From an uncultured cyanobacterium (GTDB lineage Bacteria; Cyanobacteriota; Cyanobacteriia; PCC-9006; JAAUQQ01), in assembly GCA_963718615.1 (NCBI GenBank), contig OY970368.1, forward strand, positions 3,264,001 to 3,328,000: a DNA stretch of 64,000 nucleotides, written 5' to 3'. Made by a program: the position numbers and the translations under genes. Below, one piece after another: positions 3,651-14,435 of this stretch. A model generated the notes under the pieces. The model searched no databases and was not told the DNA's origin. It was given only the letters and a program-made list of their open reading frames with translations. The first letter of the stretch is position 1, and each line of letters begins with the position of its first letter.

Positions 3651-4310
3651 ATGAACACTAAAAGTACCCAAGTAGAAGCTGGACAAGCGGTGTACACCCA
3701 GCAGACACTGGCTGTCTACGACTTCATCGTACTTGGTCTTTCAAACCAATTTGTTTGGCAATGCCCGACTCAACGGCTTGTGAAGCACTACGACCAACTC
3801 GTGACAGCCAATCATCTAGATGTTGGAGTAGGGACAGGCTACTTTCTTGATCAGTGCCAGTTTCCCTCCCCTACGCCGCGTATTACATTGATGGACCTCA
3901 ATCAGAATACACTAGAGTTTGCTTCCCAGCGTATTGCGCGATATAACCCCAAAACCTATCGTCAAAATGTTTTAGAGCCTATTAACTTAGATACGGAAAA
4001 GTTTGATTCGGTAGGAATCAACTACCTACTCCATTGCATTCCGGGCACCCTTGAGACAAAGTCGGCTGCTATCGATTATCTCAAGGCTTTGATGAATCCT
4101 GGTGCAGTTCTTTTTGGTTCAACCATTTTACAGGGTGACGTGCCCGTCAATGGGTTCGCCAAGCATTTGATGGCTGCTTACAACCAAAAAGGAATCTTTT
4201 CAAACCAAAACGACACCCTCAAAGACTTGAAGAGTATCCTTAATCAGAGATTTAAAGATGTCTCTGTTGAGGTTATCGGCTGCGTTGCACTTTTTTCAGG
4301 CCGAGTCTGA
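3651..4310 (+). CDS. Class I SAM-dependent methyltransferase
   Basis: HLDVGVGTG motif I, TLMDLN motif II, FDSVGINYLLHCIPG. Confidence 0.85.
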   Translation: MNTKSTQVEAGQAVYTQQTLAVYDFIVLGLSNQFVWQCPTQRLVKHYDQLVTANHLDVGVGTGYFLDQCQFPSPTPRITLMDLNQNTLEFASQRIARYNPKTYRQNVLEPINLDTEKFDSVGINYLLHCIPGTLETKSAAIDYLKALMNPGAVLFGSTILQGDVPVNGFAKHLMAAYNQKGIFSNQNDTLKDLKSILNQRFKDVSVEVIGCVALFSGRV

Positions 4311-7605: not shown

Positions 7606-7747
7606 TCTTAGAGCTTTAGCGACAGAACCTTGGCGTTTTAAATACTGAACCTTGAGATTCTCAGGGCCGGAAACCCAGAACCAGCAAGAAATCCAGCTTT
7701 TTTACCGTGTTAAAATGCAGGCTACCCCTGAGCAGGAGGCTAGGCCC

Positions 7748-8320
7748 ATGACCCTCGCAACCTCAAAAAAAATGACCCTCGAAGAGTTTCTGGCCTACGA
7801 CGATGGCACAGACACCCGTTACGAGCTAGAAAACGGAGAACTGATTGCCATGCCTGCGGAGAGCGAAATTAATCGTCGAATCGCCGTCTTTCTCTTGATT
7901 TACTTCAGCCAACTGGGAATTTCGCCAGCACGTCTGACCCTGAAAACTGAAGTTGCGGTCACCAGTACCCGAGTATCCGTTCGAATCCCAGACCTGATGA
8001 TTTTGTCAGAAGAAGGCGCAACGGCTTTAGAAGGCGCGAGTCGCTCCATCGTTCTCCTCGACATGCCGCCCCCCCAGCTTGTGGTCGAAGTTGTCAGCGC
8101 TGGCCAGGAAAAACGAGACTACCGCTACAAACGCACGGAGTATGGCGCGCGGGGCATTGTGGAGTATTGGATTGTAGACCCGATCGCCCAGCAAATCACC
8201 CTGCTGGAATGGGTCGAAGGGTTGTATGAGGAACAAGTTTATGGATTGGGCGATCGCCTCCGCTCCACTCTCTTCCCCGCCTTGGATTTAACTAGCGATC
8301 GCATCCTGAGCGCGCAATAA
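7748..8320 (+). CDS. Uma2 family putative restriction endonuclease (PD-(D/E)xK)
   Basis: MTLEEFLAYDDGTDTRYELENGELI, RIPDL, LVVEVVS, DYRYKRTEY, EYWIVDP. Confidence 0.92.
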   Translation: MTLATSKKMTLEEFLAYDDGTDTRYELENGELIAMPAESEINRRIAVFLLIYFSQLGISPARLTLKTEVAVTSTRVSVRIPDLMILSEEGATALEGASRSIVLLDMPPPQLVVEVVSAGQEKRDYRYKRTEYGARGIVEYWIVDPIAQQITLLEWVEGLYEEQVYGLGDRLRSTLFPALDLTSDRILSAQ

Positions 8321-9020: not shown

Positions 9021-10946
9021 TTACGTCCTCGGCGGCAAGCAGGCGACGCGGAACCCGCTGAAGCGGTTGAGGCGGCCGCGATCGAGCCAGTCGCGATTGG
9101 CGGAGCGGCAGTTCCTAGGACCGCGCATCCAGGAGCCCCCCCGCAGGAGCCGGAGTGATTGCTCACCCTTTTGTAAACTTTTCCATGCACTTCCATCTGT
9201 CGGTGCCCCCTCGTAGCTGTCGTGCCACTCGTCCTCGCACCATTCCCACACATTCCCATGCATGTCATACAGCCCAAAGGCGTTGGGTGGAAAGCTGCCA
9301 ACATCAGTCGTTTGTTCTCGATACTTCCCCTTGCTTCCCTTGCCGTAGGTAGAGTTGCCGTTGTAATTCACCAGGTCTGGCGTAATCGTTTCTCCAAAAT
9401 AAAACGGCGTTGTCGTCCCTGCCCGACAGGCATACTCCCACTCCGCTTCGCTCGGTAACCGATAGGTTTTGCCCGTCGCCTTGCTCAGCCGCGCACAAAA
9501 CTCCTGGGCATCGTCCCAACTAATGCACTCAATGGGGCGTTTGGGTCCTTTAAAATTCGCCGGGTCTGGCTCCAGATCTCGCTGCACCTTCGGCAGGGCT
9601 GCAACCCGCTTCCACTGTTCCTGAGTGACCGCAAACTTGCCGAAGAAAAACTCTGGCACTCTGACCCGATGCTGTTGCTCAACATTGACATTGCCTAGCG
9701 CTTCTCGCCAGTTCTTATACCAATCTCGCCCTTCTTCGTTTTCCGGCGATCCCATCACAAACTCCCCACCTGGAATCCGCACCATCTCCAGCACAACGCC
9801 ATTGCCCAGGTCTTCGACAAACTGCTCCGCCGACCGGGTCTCGCGCTGGCTGATCTTGCCCCGCTCATCCACCTGCACCGTCTCAAACTCAAACCGGATG
9901 AGGTTGAGGCCGTTGGCTGGGGGCTGGACGAACGGCGGTTCGTCCCTACGGGGGGTGGGGGATGATCGGGATCCTTGGGGGATTGGCTGGGGCTTCGGTG
10001 GGTCAGGTCGGGTGCCACTGCCTCTGGCCCGCAACTCTGGCAATTGCTGCAATGCCCGGATTGCCTCCATATCCCGCCCCTGGGCCACCACCAACACCCG
10101 AATCCAAATCTGCTCCGCTAGGTCCCAGTCTCCCTGAAACATCATCCGGTACGCATCGTTCTTGAGCACCGCAATATCCGTCAACGTCGCACAGCGCGGC
10201 TGCAAAATAAAATGCAGCTTCTCCGCCGGATCCGCCGCCGTCCGAGGCATTTGTTCCGGAAACTTGCCGTGCTGCCGACACAGCCCCGGCACCCGATCGC
10301 GCAAATACTGGCCCAACCGCTCCACCGTCGCACAATTGCGCTCCCCATTCAGCCGCAACGCCTCCAGCAAGCTATAGGTAAACGCCCCATGCTCCAACGC
10401 CTCAATCTCCCAAGACTTCTGCGTCGGTCCACAGGACGAAATCGTAATAATCCCCGGCTGCGCCTCCGCCCCAACGCCACCCCCATCCCTCGCCCCCTCC
10501 GTCCGGCAGGCATCCAAGAGCAAAATCACATTGTCCGCCCCACAGCGACAGAGCCGCTCCCGGATATAGTTCACCGGAATGGCCGTGCGGTCGATCACTC
10601 TCGGATTCGCATCTTGAGGCATCAAAAAATCCTGATTCTGATGCTGCCCCCCATGGCCCGCAAAGAAAAACCAACAGTTATCCCCCTTCTCCAGAAAAGG
10701 ACTAGCAAACCGATCCTCCAGCAACGAAATTAGATTTCCCACCGTCGGGCGAGTCGAAAGCTCGTTCCCATTGGGCAACACCTGGGACGGAGAATCATCC
10801 GTAAACAGCCACACCCCCTCAAACCCCGCCTCCTGGGCAAAAAAATCCCGCACCGCCTCCGCATCCCGCTTGGCATAGCGCAGCGGCGGGAAGTTCGTCG
10901 GTACATAATCATTGATGCCAATGACAAAGGCCCAATTGCGTGACAT
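9021..10946 (-). CDS. Caspase (peptidase C14) + FGE-sulfatase/CLec-fold protein; putative DGR target
   Basis: [15 protein letters not shown] and LLDACR catalytic dyad; Pro-rich linker; [42 protein letters not shown]...CRSANR...GFRV. Probable ATG at 10946. Confidence 0.92.
9926..9950 (-). repeat. REP copy embedded in frame in the caspase-CLec linker
   Basis: Minus strand CGTAGGGACGAACCGCCGTTCGTCC, 23/25 identical to the start of the 10978-11007 palindrome; translated as RRDEPPFV. Confidence 0.8.
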
Positions 10947-10977
10947 GGATTTGATGCGGTGACAGGTTTCCGGCAAC

Positions 10978-11007
10978 CGTAGGGACGAACAGCTGTTCGT
11001 CCCTACG
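10978..11007. repeat. Perfect 30-bp REP-like palindrome
   Basis: CGTAGGGACGAACAG|CTGTTCGTCCCTACG; contains the TAG stop of the 11003-11434 gene. Confidence 0.9.
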
Positions 11008-11434
11008 GGGATTCTGGGGATAATGGTGGACTGGCTTTCTTAAATTTCAGCGTCATCGCTCCTTTTCCGCCCGTTTTGATCCCAGACCCCATCAAACTCA
11101 CCTGACCCTCCCCATTCACCTCCACCGTCAGCTCGATCGCCTCCAACTCCATCCCCGCCACATCCCCTGCACTCTCCAGCGCATGGCGCAACACCCGCCC
11201 CGTCACCTGCAAAAAATCCGTCAGCCCCTGCTCCAATTTTTCCGCACTCACTGCCACCCGCCGGGGCTCCGCAGTGGTTACGATGCCGCCGTCCTTGGAC
11301 GTGCGCTGGGGCGTGCGCTGGGGCAAGGTCTCGTAGGGACTAGACCCCAGATTCCAGTCTCGACTGCCCTCAGAATATTGAGCGTCAGCCACCGTGACTT
11401 CGTCGGTGATGAGCCAAATGTAATCGTTTGTCAT
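11003..11434 (-). CDS. Pepco/Trypco-like peptidase-co-occurring domain protein
   Basis: IWLITDE...[14 protein letters not shown]...[39 protein letters not shown]; lies immediately upstream of a caspase. Confidence 0.75.
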
Positions 11435-11516
11435 CTTGCAAAGGAGAGATTTCCGTGATTCTCACGACCCATTGTAGACGGGGGACGATGGTAGACGGAG
11501 GGCGATCGCCCCTCCC

Positions 11517-12383
11517 CTAATCCGGCGGTGGCAACTCCAGCGGAATCTTGCCCAACAACCCCTTGCGAAAATCATCGAGAAAATGACGGGCGGTGCGTTC
11601 GCGATCGCCACTAAACCGTGCTTCCGCCACCGCAAACAAATAGTCCTCGCCCGTATGAACCCATTCATCGACGCCGTAGCGATCGCACAACAAACTCCGA
11701 GGCACAGGGGGGCGATCGAGATCCTGCAAGGCTTTGACCTGCTCGATCAGCTCAGCGGCAACCCGCTGGTTATCGTAGGCGGCTTGGCCAATGTCATCGC
11801 AGAGGGCCAGCTTAATCGCAGCGGCTTGGTCGTTGAGTTTGGCCGGGAGGACGCCAGGGGCATCGAGTAGATCTAGGTCTTTGCCCACCCGCACCCAGCG
11901 CAGCGCGCGGGTCACCCCCGGTTTTCGGGCACTTTCAACGGCGCGTTTGTCCACGAGGCGATTGATCAACGCCGACTTACCCACATTGGGAAAGCCAATC
12001 ATCACCGCCCGCACCGCCCGAGGCTTCATCCCCCGCTTCCGCCGCCGTTCGTTCATGGCAAAGCCTGCCTCCTGGGCGGCCTTGGCCAGTTCCCGGATGC
12101 CTTTGCCATGCTGGGCATCGGTAAAGCAAACGGGTTTGCCCTGGGCCGCAAACCAGGCGTGCCATTGGTCTTGGAGCTGTTGGGGAATCATGTCCACCCG
12201 ATTGAGGACCAGGACGCGTTCTTTGCTCCCGACCCATTCTTCAACGCGGGGATGGTGAGTGGCGAAGGGAATCCGGGCATCGCGCACCTCCAAGACCACG
12301 TCAACGCGCTTGAGTTGGTCGAGGAGGAGGCGTTCGGCCTTGGCAATGTGACCGGGATACCATTGAATCGAAGGGGTGGACAT
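11517..12383 (-). CDS. ylqF: Ribosome biogenesis GTPase YlqF/RbgA
   Basis: IQWYPGHIAKA, EVRDARIP, GFPNVGKS, KPGVT, LLDAPG. Confidence 0.95.
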   Translation of the reverse strand: MSTPSIQWYPGHIAKAERLLLDQLKRVDVVLEVRDARIPFATHHPRVEEWVGSKERVLVLNRVDMIPQQLQDQWHAWFAAQGKPVCFTDAQHGKGIRELAKAAQEAGFAMNERRRKRGMKPRAVRAVMIGFPNVGKSALINRLVDKRAVESARKPGVTRALRWVRVGKDLDLLDAPGVLPAKLNDQAAAIKLALCDDIGQAAYDNQRVAAELIEQVKALQDLDRPPVPRSLLCDRYGVDEWVHTGEDYLFAVAEARFSGDRERTARHFLDDFRKGLLGKIPLELPPPD

Positions 12384-12432
12384 GAAGGCTGGGAAGATAG
12401 AGGCTGAAGCAGTGATCCATTAGGCATTATCC

Positions 12433-13023
12433 ATGCAAACACCGGGACATGTGATTTTGAATTTGGGGGTTTTAGGACGGCGATCGCATCCCCAGTGGAA
12501 CTGGCCCATTGCCATCGGGGCATTTTTGCCGGATGCAGCGATGTTTGGGTTTTATTTTTGGACGAAGGTTGTGCAGGGATTGCCTGACGGAGAGATCTGG
12601 AGAACCACCTATTTTTTACCAGGTTGGCAGGCTCTATTTGATGTGTTTAATTCGATTCCATTGGCATTGGTTGGGACAGGCATTGGGCTGTATTTTCGCA
12701 AGCAGGCGATCGCCCTGTTTTTCTTCAGCATTGTCCTCCACTGTCTTTGCGATTTGCCGCTGCACCATGATGATGCCCATCGACATTTTTTACCGTTGAG
12801 TCAGTTTCGGTTTGTGAGTCCGGTGTCCTATTGGGATCCGGACCATTATGGGCTTTGGGGCGCGGGGCTGGAGGCGATTTTGGTTGTGGCTGCAAGTGTG
12901 GTGTTGTGGCGGTGCTGGCGATCGCGCTGGATAAGGGGGGTTTTGGGGGCGATCGGGCTGCTTTATGTTGTCCATTATGGGGTGCTGTTGGGACAGACTT
13001 TTTCACCCATGCATGTTGGATAG
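12433..13023 (+). CDS. Membrane protein, metal-dependent hydrolase-like
   Basis: N-terminal TPGH, GAFLPD, LHCLCDLPLHHDDAHRHF; hydrophobic helices. Confidence 0.7.
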   Translation: MQTPGHVILNLGVLGRRSHPQWNWPIAIGAFLPDAAMFGFYFWTKVVQGLPDGEIWRTTYFLPGWQALFDVFNSIPLALVGTGIGLYFRKQAIALFFFSIVLHCLCDLPLHHDDAHRHFLPLSQFRFVSPVSYWDPDHYGLWGAGLEAILVVAASVVLWRCWRSRWIRGVLGAIGLLYVVHYGVLLGQTFSPMHVG

Positions 13024-13042
13024 GTTCTACAAATGTTGTATT

Positions 13043-13064
13043 GGGCGCGGGATTCGCGCCCCTA
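13043..13064 (-). repeat. REP flanking RAYT (downstream side)
   Basis: Minus strand (C)TAGGGGCGCGAATCCCGCGCCC; 7-bp stem GGGCGCG/CGCGCCC. Confidence 0.85.
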
Positions 13065-13103
13065 GTGTTTTTCTGATATCAATGACCCAATGATCTGCCA
13101 GTG

Positions 13104-13625
13104 TCACCATTTGGATGGATTTTGGGGATGCAATTGGTCGATTGTCCAGCGCAGAGGGTTTTCCTGGATGTAGCTTTGTAACTTCTGACGCGAGGAGTTG
13201 TCTCGAATGATGTGTTCGTAATAGTTTCGCTGCCAAACTTTGATGCCTGGGGTATTGCGCTGCACGTTAATTTGCTTTGTGGTTTCGTATTTAAATGTTT
13301 GGATCAGTTGCCCTAATGTCGCTCGCTTCTGGAAAGAATTGCACTGGTCGGAAGGTAGAATATCCAGAATGAAATGAATGTGGTTTGGCATGATGATATA
13401 GGATGCGATCGCCACTCCCTCATTACCTGCCGCGAAATGCTCTAACTGCTTTTCTACCAAAACACCAAATTGGCTGAGCTGAACAGTTGCTCCCAAAACC
13501 TTACCGAATAAACATTCACGATGTTGAACACAAATAGTCACAAAATAGGAGCCGGGTTGACGGTAATTATACCCGCGCAAACGGATCGATCTGCGGTGAT
13601 GTCGTGCTGGGTCGTAACGTTCCAT
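13104..13625 (-). mobile_element. REP-associated tyrosine transposase (RAYT, Y1 HUH family)
   Basis: HHRRSIRLRGYNY, YFVTICV, IMPNHIH (HUH), WQRNYYEHIIR, YIQENP; flanked by GTAG REPs; AT-richer than its neighbours. Confidence 0.92.
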
Positions 13626-13715
13626 CAAAATCATTGACCAAAACCCCATAGGTTCAGAATGCCCATTTTTCACCTAAACCCAAAATCTCCAGGGAGGCAT
13701 CACAAATCCTGCATT

Positions 13716-13795
13716 GGGCGCGGGATTCGCGCCCCTACCGAAAATCCATGGATTCCGCCCAAAACGATTAGGGTAGGGGTCGGCATTCCCGACCC
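13716..13795. repeat. Inverted REP doublet upstream of RAYT
   Basis: GGGCGCGGGATTCGCGCCCCTAC (13716-13738) and GTAGGGGTCGGCATTCCCGACCC (13773-13795) in opposite orientations. Confidence 0.85.
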
Positions 13796-13970
13796 TCAGG
13801 GGTCTAGGGCGCTTCACAAATTTGGTATTGGCGATGGGTGCGATCGCTAATGTATCGCAATATTGCGCAGTGTTTCGCTCTGCTTCAGGAACCGAGGGAG
13901 ATTCAAAGAGATCGCTAGGATCGGAGCATTGCTTAAATTTCATTCCAATTCCGCTAGAAAAACGCCGCTT

Positions 13971-14435
13971 ATGAGTTCTGCGATCGCCTATCCCAACGCC
14001 TCCGACCTCTCCACCGACAGCTATCTGCCCGTGGGCCTCGCCCTTTGCTTTACCAAGGAAGAAGGCGAAGTCAAGCAAGTTCAGGTGCTAGAACCGATTC
14101 CCTCTTCCACCCTAGCGACGCTTTTAGCCGGGACAACCACATCCTATCAAAAGGTCTTTGGCCTCACCCTCGGCGAGCTGTTAGAGGGTGAGCAAGTCAA
14201 ACCGCGCCCCGAATTCCCCGCCGAAGCCATGCTGGCCGAAAACTTTGCCTTCCGCGCCATCAGCGCCGCCCGCACCTACCAGCGCAACCCCGAATTCGCC
14301 ACCCAAATTCCCCCTGGCACCACCTACGATCGCCTCAACCATTCCACCGAGCGCAAGCGGGTGCTGAATGCAGACAACATCGTCGGCCAGGACGACAACG
14401 TCAAACAACATGCCTACACCCATCAGGTGTTATAA
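13971..14435 (+). CDS. Hypothetical protein (conserved cyanobacterial type)
   Basis: DLSTDSYLPVGLALCF...EPIPS...AARTY...LNHSTERKRVLN...DDNVKQHAYTHQVL. Confidence 0.75.
   Translation: MSSAIAYPNASDLSTDSYLPVGLALCFTKEEGEVKQVQVLEPIPSSTLATLLAGTTTSYQKVFGLTLGELLEGEQVKPRPEFPAEAMLAENFAFRAISAARTYQRNPEFATQIPPGTTYDRLNHSTERKRVLNADNIVGQDDNVKQHAYTHQVL

What the first reader, a model, noticed from the sequence alone, without database searches (positions are those of the whole stretch)
9926..11007. Caspase effector module bracketed by two copies of one REP, one of them translated: candidate REP-mediated domain shuffling of a DGR sensor
Seen: a perfect 30-bp palindrome (10978-11007) sits between the Pepco-like gene and the caspase gene and supplies the former's TAG. 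A 23/25-identical copy (9926-9950) lies in the Pro-rich linker between the caspase and CLec domains, read in a frame that avoids the TAG (RRDEPPFV). Both are preceded on the minus strand by C-rich ...CCCC runs. The two copies delimit the ~1-kb N-terminal effector module. Known: GTAG-REPs are RAYT substrates and are normally intergenic, and cyanobacterial CLec targets carry many alternative N-terminal domains. Inference: REP-directed nicking or recombination could swap effector modules onto a hypervariable receptor. This would be a second diversification layer that I am not aware of being described.
Basis: partly seen in the sequence, partly recalled or inferred. Interest (0 to 1): 0.82.

Follow-up and report, generated by a model that had tools for sequence, protein, structure and literature searches.

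The report
Translated REP repeat in defence-gene linker
Two copies of a small mobile palindromic repeat lie beside and inside a cyanobacterial defence gene, and one is translated as part of a floppy linker; this repeat does that in many genes here, so it is more likely a tolerated hitch-hiker than a proven domain-swapping device.

Summary
Both sequences belong to a GTAG-tagged REP family, here called REP-1 (CC-GTAG-GGACGAAC-NGCN-GTTCGTCC). It has 60 tagged copies in this 6.1-Mb genome and occurs in all 7 same-family genomes searched.

One copy is an intercistronic palindrome that supplies the TAG stop of the Pepco gene. The other is read in frame as RRDEPPFV inside a low-confidence linker of a caspase-FGE protein.

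Neither behaviour is special to this gene:
- 31 REP-1 copies lie deep inside 27 long ORFs, including LeuRS, ValRS, GltB, SufBD, a PKS and RecJ.
- Intragenic GTAG REPs, and GTAG REPs that supply TAG stops, are already published.
- The genome has no reverse transcriptase and no TR/VR pair, so there is no active DGR.
- Pepco-caspase orthologs in two other genera have neither REP, so the REP-bracketed caspase module is not a delivered cassette.

Some signal remains. Three FGE paralogs with different N-terminal modules share this REP at the junction. Homology starts at the REP in two of the three pairs. A roughly 55-codon tract beside the REP is more alike at synonymous sites than the rest of the domain. 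The probable cognate RAYT-like gene is linked to FGE genes in two genera. REP-assisted recombination therefore stays possible but unproven.

The parts
10978..11007 (.). REP-1 copy with a GTAG tag on both sides: a perfect 30-bp palindrome in the 56-nt spacer between the Pepco and caspase-FGE genes. It supplies the Pepco TAG stop (11003-11005, minus strand).
   Evidence: It is one of 5 perfect double-tagged copies in the genome. The orthologous spacers in G001 and G002 have no REP.
9926..9950 (-). REP-1 copy with its GTAG tag on the minus (gene) strand, translated in frame as RRDEPPFV in the Pro-rich linker.
   Evidence: It is identical to the commonest family form. It lies inside the segment 312-345 with pLDDT below 50.
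9021..10946 (-). Caspase-FGE gene (641 aa): the protease plus sensor component of a Pepco-protease module.
   Evidence: Pfam gives Peptidase_C14 at 74 bits and FGE-sulfatase at 181.9 bits. The start codon was chosen by agreement with orthologs.
10233..10940 (-). Caspase (Peptidase_C14) domain, about residues 3-238.
   Evidence: It is 76-78% aa identical to G002 and G001 orthologs that also have Pepco upstream.
9912..10013 (-). Predicted disordered linker (residues 312-345) that contains the REP.
   Evidence: AlphaFold2 pLDDT is below 50 over residues 312-345.
9042..9788 (-). FGE-sulfatase (C-type-lectin fold) domain. [quoted passage not shown]
   Evidence: strands 350-391. The description of FGS domains is from Kaur et al. 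2020.
11003..11434 (-). Pepco gene (143 aa), the latent effector of the pair.
   Evidence: Pfam Pepco scores 90.3 bits against a cut-off of 27. Its function is taken from passages of Evans et al. 2025.
13104..13673 (-). RAYT-like Y1 transposase gene (189 aa), 2.1 kb upstream. REP-1 does not flank it, so it is probably not the cognate enzyme.
   Evidence: Pfam Y1_Tnp scores 26.8 bits. NCBIfam REP_Tyr_transpos scores 66.7 bits, below the cut-off of 80. No inverted repeats were found in 11400-14200. It is 33% identical to RAYT-K.

Best explanation
Both sequences are ordinary members of one lineage-specific GTAG-type REP family, here called REP-1. This family often settles inside genes.

REPs of this kind are thought to be spread by an HUH/Y1 'RAYT' transposase, which recognises the GTAG tag plus the hairpin on single-stranded DNA. 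The likely cognate enzyme here, RAYT-K, lies at G000 3,706,708-3,707,385. REP-1 copies flank it and interrupt it, and it sits just downstream of a paralogous kinase-FGE gene.

Copies that land in coding DNA survive when three conditions hold: they add a multiple of three bases, they are read in one of the five stop-free frames, and they fall in loops or linkers.

In this window one copy was inserted between two formerly abutting genes and now ends the Pepco ORF. The other sits in the disordered linker of the caspase-FGE protein. It was carried to, or shared among, three FGE paralogs by descent or paralog gene conversion. In this reading the REP is a tolerated passenger, and its bracketing of the caspase module is incidental.

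Shown: family membership, genome-wide in-frame copies, presence/absence differences between genera, REP-free orthologs, and absence of a DGR.

Inferred: RAYT-K activity, insertion as the origin of the linker copy, and the passenger role.
For: Family:
- The genome has 29 exact cores and 67 hits with at most 1 mismatch per arm. Of those 67, 60 carry a GTAG tag.
- The loop is NGCN in 45 of 45 oriented copies.
- REP-1 is present in 7 of 7 same-family genomes. Of 23 other-family genomes, one has a single 1-mismatch hit and the rest have none.
- G002 carries a stem-compensated variant, GGACGACC..GGTCGTCC.

In-frame copies are common:
- 34 of 67 hits lie at least 30 codons from both ends of an ORF of at least 200 aa. 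I discount 3 of them because their ORF is built from the REP cluster itself. That leaves 31 copies in 27 ORFs.
- 24 of those 27 ORFs have a family hit.
- 18 of the 24 REPs lie outside the reported domain stretches.

Mobility:
- ValRS carries an insert in G000 and an independent insert in the opposite orientation in G006. The site is empty in G001, G002, G003, G004 and 5 outgroups.
- LeuRS carries the REP at the same loop in G000, G002 and G004. It is inverted in G003 and absent in G005, G006 and 5 outgroups.

This locus:
- G001 and G002 have Pepco and caspase adjacent with no REP.
- None of the 23 FGE modules found in relatives has a REP within 250 nt upstream.
- Only 2 of the 120 best database homologs carry the REP peptide, and both are from this genome.
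- The linker has pLDDT below 50.

Published precedent: GTAG REPs that supply TAG stops and REPs inside ORFs are described in Di Nocera et al. 2013 (PMC3733652, passages read).
Against: - The REP is better conserved among the three paralogs (1-3 differences in 25 nt) than the flanking DNA, which is 71-81% identical. This suggests either constraint or recent homogenisation.
- Homology between W and K, and between K and C2, begins 8 nt before the REP hairpin. The K-C2 homology ends about 34 nt past a second REP in the same orientation.
- REP-1 is enriched at FGE loci. There are 3 copies inside FGE genes against 0.14 expected (6 of 20,000 permutations reach this). There are 7 within 200 bp against 0.17 expected (0 of 20,000).
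- 5 of 33 FGE modules, spread over three genomes, have a REP 96-164 nt downstream.
- RAYT-K scores 77.5 bits, just under the NCBIfam cut-off of 80, and its activity is untested.
- The linker does not align between orthologs, so no clean empty site proves that the linker copy arose by insertion.
Confidence: 0.62

Rival explanations
1. The REP drives recombination. A nick or stalled fork at the linker REP, made by RAYT-K or caused by the hairpin itself, starts gene conversion or recombination between FGE paralogs. Tracts around the REP are then exchanged, and sensor modules can be re-paired with different N-terminal modules.
For: - Three paralogs with a caspase, a kinase and a second caspase N-terminus share the REP at the same codon position.
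- The segment from the REP through about 45 aa is 76-79% identical between W and K or C2, but only 30-46% identical to the other modules that could be scored there.
- The FGE core of W falls with G003_L037 inside a 98* clade. K and C2 fall in a separate 97* clade with G007 and G002 modules.
- Third-codon-position identity in the 52-codon tract is 77-79%, against 56-59% in the rest of the domain. Fisher p is 0.004 and 0.005.
- Homology edges lie at the REP.
- The FGE-REP-RAYT-K order is conserved between G000 and G002, while the N-terminal module differs: kinase in G000, Pepco plus caspase in G002.
Against: - The tract was defined after looking at the data, so the p-values are optimistic.
- The AU test does not reject a single clade of W, K and C2 (p 0.142).
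- In the W-C2 pair the similarity runs about 45-70 nt past the REP, so the REP is not always the edge.
- The edges also coincide with the natural domain and linker boundary.
- Module exchange occurs at this linker in relatives that have no REP (G001, G002).
- No REP-bearing housekeeping gene was examined for a comparable mosaic.
Confidence: 0.22
2. REP-FGE-REP is a cargo element. Two REP-1 copies in the same orientation act like the left and right end hairpins of an IS200/IS605-type element, and RAYT-K moves the 1.1-kb segment that encodes the FGE domain behind new N-terminal modules.
For: - K and C2 share 80.7% identity over 1,095 aligned bases. The match runs from 8 nt before the linker REP to about 34 nt past a downstream REP in the same orientation. 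There is no homology outside it.
- RAYT-K lies directly downstream of K.
Against: - W has no downstream REP.
- No empty target site, target motif or second identical copy was found.
- At 80.7% identity the event is old.
- A downstream REP is equally well explained as part of the 3' untranslated region that was copied together with the gene. G003 has its downstream REP in the opposite orientation.
Confidence: 0.06
3. The linker REP is kept for a function of its own. That could be an mRNA hairpin that slows translation between domains or alters transcript stability, or the peptide RRDEPPFV could serve as a protease or docking site.
For: - The REP is nearly invariant among three paralogs that are otherwise 71-81% identical in DNA.
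- The stems of the LeuRS REP are unchanged across three genera.
- The hairpin is stable.
Against: - The same element occurs in 24 unrelated ORFs, in several frames and both orientations.
- All 23 FGE modules in relatives lack it.
- REP conservation is also expected from continued activity of the REP-RAYT system.
Confidence: 0.06

Closest known systems
GTAG-tagged REPs/REPINs and their RAYT transposases (Di Nocera et al. 2013, PMC3733652, passages read; Bertels & Rainey 2011, PMC3116915, listing and abstract start only)
   Same: - A short hairpin with a GTAG tag at one end, in many dispersed copies.
- Some copies are paired in opposite orientation.
- A RAYT-like gene is flanked by the same repeat.
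- GTAG ends supply TAG stops.
- Some copies lie inside ORFs.
- The family is inherited vertically within a lineage.
   Different: - About half of the copies here are deep inside long ORFs (34 of 67).
- The RAYT-like gene carries three copies in frame within its own ORF.
- The best candidate enzyme scores just below the NCBIfam RAYT cut-off (77.5 against 80).
Rickettsia palindromic elements (RPEs) inserted in frame in protein genes (recalled from memory; also named in the Di Nocera passages)
   Same: Palindromic repeats are inserted in frame into many unrelated genes, housekeeping genes included, and are tolerated in loops and linkers.
   Different: According to the Di Nocera passages, RPE-4 and RPE-6 are CGTC-tagged. 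REP-1 is GTAG-tagged, only 24-30 nt long, and sits in a free-living cyanobacterium with a linked RAYT-like gene.
Pepco-protease defence modules with FGE sensors (Evans et al. 2025 preprint, 10.1101/2025.11.14.688446, passages read)
   Same: A Pepco gene lies immediately upstream of a protease fused to an FGE-type sensor. In that work Pepco is a latent pore-forming effector released by cleavage of its C-terminal tail.
   Different: Here a REP separates the two genes and forms the end of the Pepco tail. Nothing about activity was tested here.
DGR-diversified FGS/CLec proteins of cyanobacteria (Kaur et al. 2020, PMC7159879, passages read)
   Same: [quoted passage not shown]
   Different: This genome has no reverse transcriptase and no TR/VR pair.
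IS200/IS605 single-strand transposition (PMC6006769, abstract start only; the mechanism is recalled from memory)
   Same: An HUH/Y1 enzyme family that recognises subterminal hairpins. Hairpins in the same orientation flank the K and C2 FGE segments.
   Different: No transposase lies inside the segment. No target motif or empty site is known. Mobility is not shown.

Membership tests
GTAG-type REP family | Short imperfect palindrome that can form a hairpin | tested here: met
   8-bp stems with a 3-4 nt loop. DNA folding gives -8.7 to -16.7 kcal/mol, with z -3.9 and -6.0 for the two window copies.
GTAG-type REP family | Unpaired GTAG tag at one end | tested here: met
   60 of 67 hits carry GTAG (at most 1 mismatch) on at least one side, and 5 are perfectly double-tagged. 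The consensus is shown.
GTAG-type REP family | Many dispersed copies within a genome, shared by a lineage | tested here: met
   29 exact cores in 6.1 Mb. Matches occur in 7 of 7 same-family genomes and in 1 of 23 other-family genomes, where the match is a single 1-mismatch hit.
GTAG-type REP family | A RAYT gene flanked by the same REPs | tested here: inconclusive
   RAYT-K (L001 6708..7385) is flanked by REP-1 and contains it. It scores 77.5 bits against a cut-off of 80 for NF047646. The one gene above the cut-off, RAYT-C at 219 bits, is flanked by a different REP.
GTAG-type REP family | Predominantly extragenic location | tested here: not met
   34 of 67 hits lie deep inside ORFs of at least 200 aa.
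RAYT (NCBIfam REP_Tyr_transpos), for the window gene 13104..13673 | Score above the curated cut-off, with HUH and catalytic Tyr motifs | tested here: inconclusive
   It scores 66.7 bits, below the cut-off of 80. The motifs PNHIHFIL and YYEHIIRD are visible in the alignment. No flanking inverted repeats were found.
Diversity-generating retroelement target | A reverse transcriptase in the genome | tested here: not met
   PF00078 gives 0 matches in the complete genome, while the control genomes do give matches.
Diversity-generating retroelement target | A TR copy of the variable region with mismatches at adenines | tested here: not met
   blastn finds only other FGE genes. The one orphan fragment (G000 944547-944672) is about 70% identical, with mismatches spread over all four bases.
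Pepco-protease-sensor defence module | A Pepco gene next to a protease fused to a sensor domain | tested here: met
   Pepco scores 90.3 bits against a cut-off of 27. Peptidase_C14 and FGE-sulfatase are both above their cut-offs. The genes are 56 nt apart on one strand.
Pepco-protease-sensor defence module | Protease cleavage of the Pepco tail releases toxicity | not testable with these tools
   Known only from the preprint passages.
In-frame palindromic insertion (RPE-like) | Present or absent at the same site among orthologs, with the reading frame kept | tested here: met
   Met for ValRS and LeuRS. For the caspase-FGE linker the result is inconclusive: all 23 FGE modules in relatives lack the REP, but the linkers do not align, so the insert edges cannot be defined.
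IS200/IS605-like element with cargo (REP-FGE-REP) | Defined ends, an empty target site, and evidence of movement | tested here: inconclusive
   REPs in the same orientation bound the K-C2 homology. No empty site or recent copy was found.

The most novel reading that the evidence does not exclude
In this lineage, which has lost or never had a DGR reverse transcriptase, the REP-1/RAYT-K pair has been put to use at FGE sensor genes. The linker REP would be a RAYT-dependent initiation site for gene conversion or cassette exchange. That exchange would reshuffle sensor modules and their N-terminal protease or kinase partners among paralogs. This would be a transposase-derived route to diversifying immune receptors in bacteria.
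Probability: 0.12. Interest if true: 0.8.

Novelty: new member of a known kind. Interest (0 to 1): 0.4.

Why it matters
Taken at face value, this is another example of two published REP behaviours: supplying a TAG stop and being translated inside a gene. It is found here in a cyanobacterial family where these behaviours have not, as far as my two searches show, been described.

Three things are worth recording:
- The scale is large. About half of the copies are intragenic. They include copies in essential genes that are conserved across genera, and three copies inside the RAYT-like gene itself.
- The repeat and its probable transposase are physically tied to a family of modular defence sensors.
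- A mosaic tract is centred on the REP in those sensors.

If the REP were shown to start exchange between the paralogs, it would link domesticated HUH transposases to the modular reshuffling of immune genes. That reshuffling has been documented only descriptively so far.

Tried and rejected
- **Public reads.** Only Logan contigs were available, the best share of words was 0.26, and no RNA holder was listed. No contig joins 9926 to 10983. A contig of run X2 spans the caspase and FGE parts with 9897-9974 replaced by 75 other letters. A contig of run X1 replaces 9897-10045 by 122 letters. I could not see those letters. Contigs cannot show rare excision products, so this says nothing either way.
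- **Metagenome scan.** The best relatives are only 57-58% identical. None of the 79 loci holds the REP-1 core, so no close relative was gained.
- **Protein database.** The protein is a singleton at 90% identity.
- **Earlier notes of this scan.** Nothing was returned.
- **Careful tree of 33 FGE modules.** It did not finish in 288 s, so I used quick trees. For the tree I dropped 7 long-branch or partial rows before building: L053, L024, L039, L044_1198, L052, L048 and L040. One further row lacked the anchor motif.
- **Chance as an explanation.** Rejected.
- **The window RAYT-like gene as the cognate enzyme.** Set aside, because no REP-1 or inverted repeat flanks it.
- **The orphan FGE fragment at G000 944547-944672 as a template repeat.** Rejected, because there is no A bias.
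- **My guess that the C-terminus of the G001 ortholog is an HTH domain.** Pfam gave no hit there, so I say only that it is not an FGE domain.
Full report
**1. The observation.**
The window holds CGTAGGGACGAACAGCTGTTCGTCCCTACG at 10978-11007, a perfect 30-bp palindrome. It holds GGACGAACGGCGGTTCGTCCCTACG at 9926-9950. The two copies differ only at two loop positions.

The core GGACGAAC-N4-GTTCGTCC occurs twice in the window. None of 100 shuffles had any match.

The genes on the minus strand are as follows:
- ORF 11003..11434 is a Pepco protein (90.3 bits).
- ORF 9021..10976 carries Peptidase_C14 and FGE-sulfatase.
- Orthologs start at [12 protein letters not shown], so the true start is the ATG at 10946.

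The palindrome therefore lies in a 56-nt spacer between the two genes and provides the Pepco TAG. The second copy is translated as RRDEPPFV, residues 333-340 of the 641-aa protein. An AlphaFold2 model built on a 39-sequence alignment has pLDDT below 50 for residues 312-345. That segment lies between helix 293-309 and strand 350-359.

**2. What the repeat is.**
The window lies in a complete single-contig genome of 6,095,823 bp (52% GC; completeness 100). I call the repeat REP-1.

Copy numbers:
- 29 exact cores.
- 67 hits with at most one mismatch per arm and a 3-4 nt loop.
- 60 of the 67 carry GTAG, with at most 1 mismatch, on at least one side. Five are perfectly tagged on both sides, the window palindrome among them.

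The oriented consensus is CC-GTAG-GGACGAAC-NGCN-GTTCGTCC. The loop is NGCN in 45 of 45 copies. C stands at -1 in 28 of 45 and at -2 in 33 of 45. The linker copy has exactly the commonest form.

With one mismatch allowed, the tagged pattern is found in all 7 same-family genomes, at 1 to 57 matches each. Of 23 other-family cyanobacterial genomes, 22 have none and one has a single 1-mismatch match. The reversed control pattern gave 0 everywhere. G002 carries a variant with compensating stem changes, GGACGACC..GGTCGTCC.

This matches the published description of GTAG-tagged REPs. The passages I read in Di Nocera et al. 2013 (PMC3733652) say that GTAG termini often provide the TAG stop of a flanking ORF. 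They also say that REPs lying entirely within ORFs occur in several species.

**3. The transposases.**
The genome has seven IS200-type Y1 genes (135-149 bits) and two weaker Y1_Tnp matches. A third RAYT-like gene was missed by that search because it is interrupted. It lies at L001 6708..7385, and I call it RAYT-K.

NCBIfam REP_Tyr_transpos (cut-off 80 bits) scores the three RAYT-like genes as follows:

| Gene | Place | Bits |
|---|---|---|
| RAYT-C | G000 near 6,035,500 | 219 |
| RAYT-K | L001 6708..7385 | 77.5 |
| Window gene | 13104..13673 | 66.7 |

- RAYT-C is flanked by a different GTAG repeat, GTAGGTTGG...CCCAACCTAC.
- The window gene has no flanking inverted repeat.
- RAYT-K is flanked by REP-1 copies. 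Relative to the window gene it also has a 45-aa insert between its HUH and Tyr motifs, made of three in-frame REP-1 copies.

RAYT-K is therefore the likeliest cognate enzyme. Its activity is inferred, not shown.

**4. Translated copies are the rule, not the exception.**
34 of the 67 hits lie at least 30 codons from either end of an ORF of at least 200 aa. Three of them are in an ORF built from the REP cluster beside RAYT-K, and I discount those. That leaves 31 copies in 27 ORFs.

I ran family searches on all 27 ORFs, and 24 have a hit:
- Housekeeping and metabolic genes: LeuRS, ValRS, glutamate synthase, SufBD, oxoprolinase, RecJ, a 2,845-aa PKS, two GH38 mannosidases, an ABC permease, a FAD monooxygenase, a Pyr_redox-AIRS fusion and NurA.
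- Surface or repeat proteins: a TPS-domain protein and a TPR protein.
- Conflict-system-like proteins: EAD4-NACHT, nSTAND1-WD40, two TPR-CHAT proteins and a CoxE-type vWA protein.
- RAYT-K itself.
- The three FGE proteins.

By the reported best domain stretches, 18 of the 24 REPs lie between or outside domains and 6 lie inside a domain envelope.

Orthologs show that these copies come and go:
- **ValRS.** G000 has a 33-nt insert. G006 has a 45-nt insert with the REP in the opposite orientation at the same loop. G001, G002, G003, G004 and five outgroups have neither.
- **LeuRS.** The REP is at the same loop in G000, G002 and G004, with unchanged stems. It is inverted in G003. It is absent in G005, G006 and five outgroups.

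**5. The locus in relatives.**
- **G001:C47.** Pepco is followed, with a 1-nt overlap, by a caspase that is 78% identical over residues 1-327. Its C-terminal part is not an FGE domain and has no Pfam hit. The locus holds no REP.
- **G002:C95.** The order is Pepco, a 6-nt gap, a caspase 76% identical but broken by two TAG stops, an FGE module, a variant REP 129 nt after it, and the ortholog of RAYT-K, which is 61% aa identical and again has an in-frame REP.

The Pepco-caspase pair is therefore ancestral and free of REPs in two other genera. The two REPs that bracket the caspase module in the window are later arrivals, not the ends of a delivered cassette.

Three further counts agree:
- None of the 23 FGE modules found in the relatives has a REP within 250 nt upstream, whereas 3 of the 10 in G000 do.
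- Of the 120 best homologs among 5.8 billion proteins, only the window protein and its kinase paralog carry the REP peptide.
- None of 79 metagenome loci holds the core.

**6. No DGR.**
PF00078 finds nothing in this complete genome, while the control genomes give matches. blastn of the gene finds only other FGE genes. One orphan FGE C-terminal fragment (G000 944547-944672) is about 70% identical to the 3' ends of the paralogs. Its mismatches fall on all four bases. The FGE domain is of the kind that DGRs diversify elsewhere (Kaur et al. 2020, passages read), but nothing here is an active DGR target.

**7. What argues for more than a passenger.**
I label the three REP-bearing FGE proteins of G000 as follows:
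- W is the window protein, with a caspase N-terminus.
- K has a Ser/Thr kinase N-terminus (L001 7853..9649).
- C2 has a second caspase type at its N-terminus (L002 7311..9386).

All three have the REP at the same codon position.

- **(a) Homology edges.**
  - K and C2 share 80.7% identity over 1,095 aligned bases. The match starts 8 nt before the linker hairpin and ends about 34 nt beyond a second REP in the same orientation, downstream of the stop.
  - W-K homology also starts 8 nt before the hairpin.
  - W-C2 homology starts about 45-70 nt further upstream.
- **(b) Mosaic.**
  - From the REP through about 45 residues, W is 76-79% identical to K and C2. It is only 30-46% identical to the other modules that could be scored there.
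  - In a tree of the FGE core, K and C2 sit in a 97* clade with G007 and G002 modules. W sits with G003_L037 inside a 98* clade (a similar picture).
  - The AU test does not reject W+K+C2 as one clade (log-likelihood difference 22.9, p 0.142).
- **(c) Synonymous sites.** The table gives third-codon-position identity in the 52-54 codons after the REP and in the other 225-228 codons. I chose the tract after seeing the alignment, so the p-values are optimistic.

| Pair | Tract | Rest of domain | Fisher p |
|---|---|---|---|
| W-K | 77% | 56% | 0.004 |
| W-C2 | 79% | 59% | 0.005 |
| K-C2 | 83% | 77% | 0.20 |

- **(d) Enrichment.**
  - 3 REP-1 copies lie inside FGE genes, against 0.14 expected (6 of 20,000 permutations reach this).
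  - 7 lie within 200 bp, against 0.17 expected (0 of 20,000).
  - 13 lie within 1 kb, against 0.30 expected (0 of 20,000).
  - 5 of 33 FGE modules, in three genomes, have a REP 96-164 nt downstream.
  - These counts are not independent. The three linker copies may be one event, and seven copies belong to the RAYT-K cluster.
- **(e) Linkage.** The order FGE-REP-RAYT-K is conserved between G000 and G002, while the N-terminal partner differs: kinase in G000, Pepco plus caspase in G002.

**8. Reading.**
The simplest account covers almost everything:
- RAYT-K has long sat next to an FGE gene.
- REP-1 copies seeded its neighbourhood, including a linker and a 3' flank.
- Duplication and paralog gene conversion of FGE genes then carried them along.
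- Elsewhere the family lands wherever a loop tolerates 8-15 extra residues.

I give this passenger reading 0.62. It leaves two things unexplained. The REP is so well kept in old paralogs, and the mosaic tract and two homology edges centre on it. For that reason I give 0.22 to the REP as an initiator of paralog recombination. I give 0.06 each to a REP-bounded cargo element and to a selected RNA or peptide role.

The relatives and the missing reverse transcriptase contradict that picture.

**9. Function of the genes.**
Passages of a 2025 preprint (Evans et al.) report three points:
- Pepco is a pre-assembled beta-barrel pore former.
- Its partner protease activates it by cutting its C-terminal tail.
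- Such proteases are often fused to FGE sensors.

If that holds here, the caspase is the licensing protease and not the final effector, and the FGE domain is the sensor. The REP palindrome forms the last codon and the stop of the Pepco tail. It also separates two genes that are coupled in relatives. A stable intercistronic hairpin could shift the ratio of the two products. That idea rests on recalled work on E. coli REPs and was not tested here.

**10. Novelty.**
REPs that give TAG stops and REPs inside ORFs are in print. Varied N-terminal partners of FGS domains are in print. My two searches (RAYT, REPIN, cyanobacteria; palindromic element, in-frame, protein-coding genes, insertion, cyanobacteria) listed no paper describing any of the following:
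- this family;
- a REP at a domain junction shared by paralogs;
- REPs inside a RAYT gene.

That is a limited search, not proof of absence. I file the finding as a new member of a known kind, with an unresolved and testable link to defence-gene reshuffling.

Noticed in passing
L001 6708-7385 (G000:C1:3706708-3707385); also G002:C95:2566-3216: The RAYT-like gene next to the kinase-FGE gene has three REP-1 copies in frame within its own ORF. They form a 45-aa insert between the HUH and Tyr motifs. The G002 ortholog has an in-frame REP at the same place, of that genome's own stem variant.
   Followed up: partly
L011/L054 (G000 LeuRS) and L022/L065 (G000 ValRS), with orthologs L055-L075: There are in-frame REP-1 copies in two aminoacyl-tRNA synthetases. 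The LeuRS copy is kept with unchanged stems in three genera and is inverted in a fourth genome. The same ValRS loop was hit independently, in opposite orientations, in G000 and G006. Repeated hits at one loop suggest either a target preference or a very narrow set of tolerated sites.
   Followed up: partly
L050 4028-4542, 4560-4760 and 5340-5600 (G000:C1 about 6,034,500-6,036,100): A second REP family, GTAGGTTGG...CCCAACCTAC, flanks the only RAYT that scores above the NCBIfam cut-off. On one side is a 26-nt tandem array of 19.8 copies and on the other a 48-nt array of 3.6 copies. All of this lies between two FGE genes of a MoxR-vWA-FGE cluster.
   Followed up: partly
G000:C1:944547-944672 (L085 about 4047-4172): An orphan 42-codon FGE C-terminal fragment rich in Asn codons lies next to a 131-bp repeat that has four other copies at about 95% identity. 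There is no reverse transcriptase nearby and no adenine-biased mismatches. It may be a relic of a truncated FGE gene or of a long-dead template repeat.
   Followed up: partly
L166 (G000:C1:6089988-6093196) compared with L003 (G000:C1:27108-30389): Two GH38 mannosidase paralogs carry the same pair of inverted REP-1 copies. In one paralog the pair is in frame (1,093 aa). In the other the gene is split into 704-aa and 416-aa ORFs exactly at the repeat.
   Followed up: partly
L025 1501-2808 (G001:C47): This ortholog of the window caspase is 78% identical over residues 1-327 and has Pepco upstream. It ends in about 100 residues that are not an FGE domain and have no Pfam hit. This is a change of C-terminal module at the same linker without any REP.
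   Followed up: partly
L026 483-1547 (G002:C95): The orthologous caspase gene in G002 is interrupted by two TAG stops, and its FGE part lies in a separate frame. It is probably a decaying copy.
   Followed up: no
window 7652-8320: A Uma2-family putative endonuclease gene (109.6 bits) lies downstream of the caspase-FGE gene. The 240 nt after the FGE stop are AT-rich and hold no REP, unlike the K and C2 paralogs.
   Followed up: no
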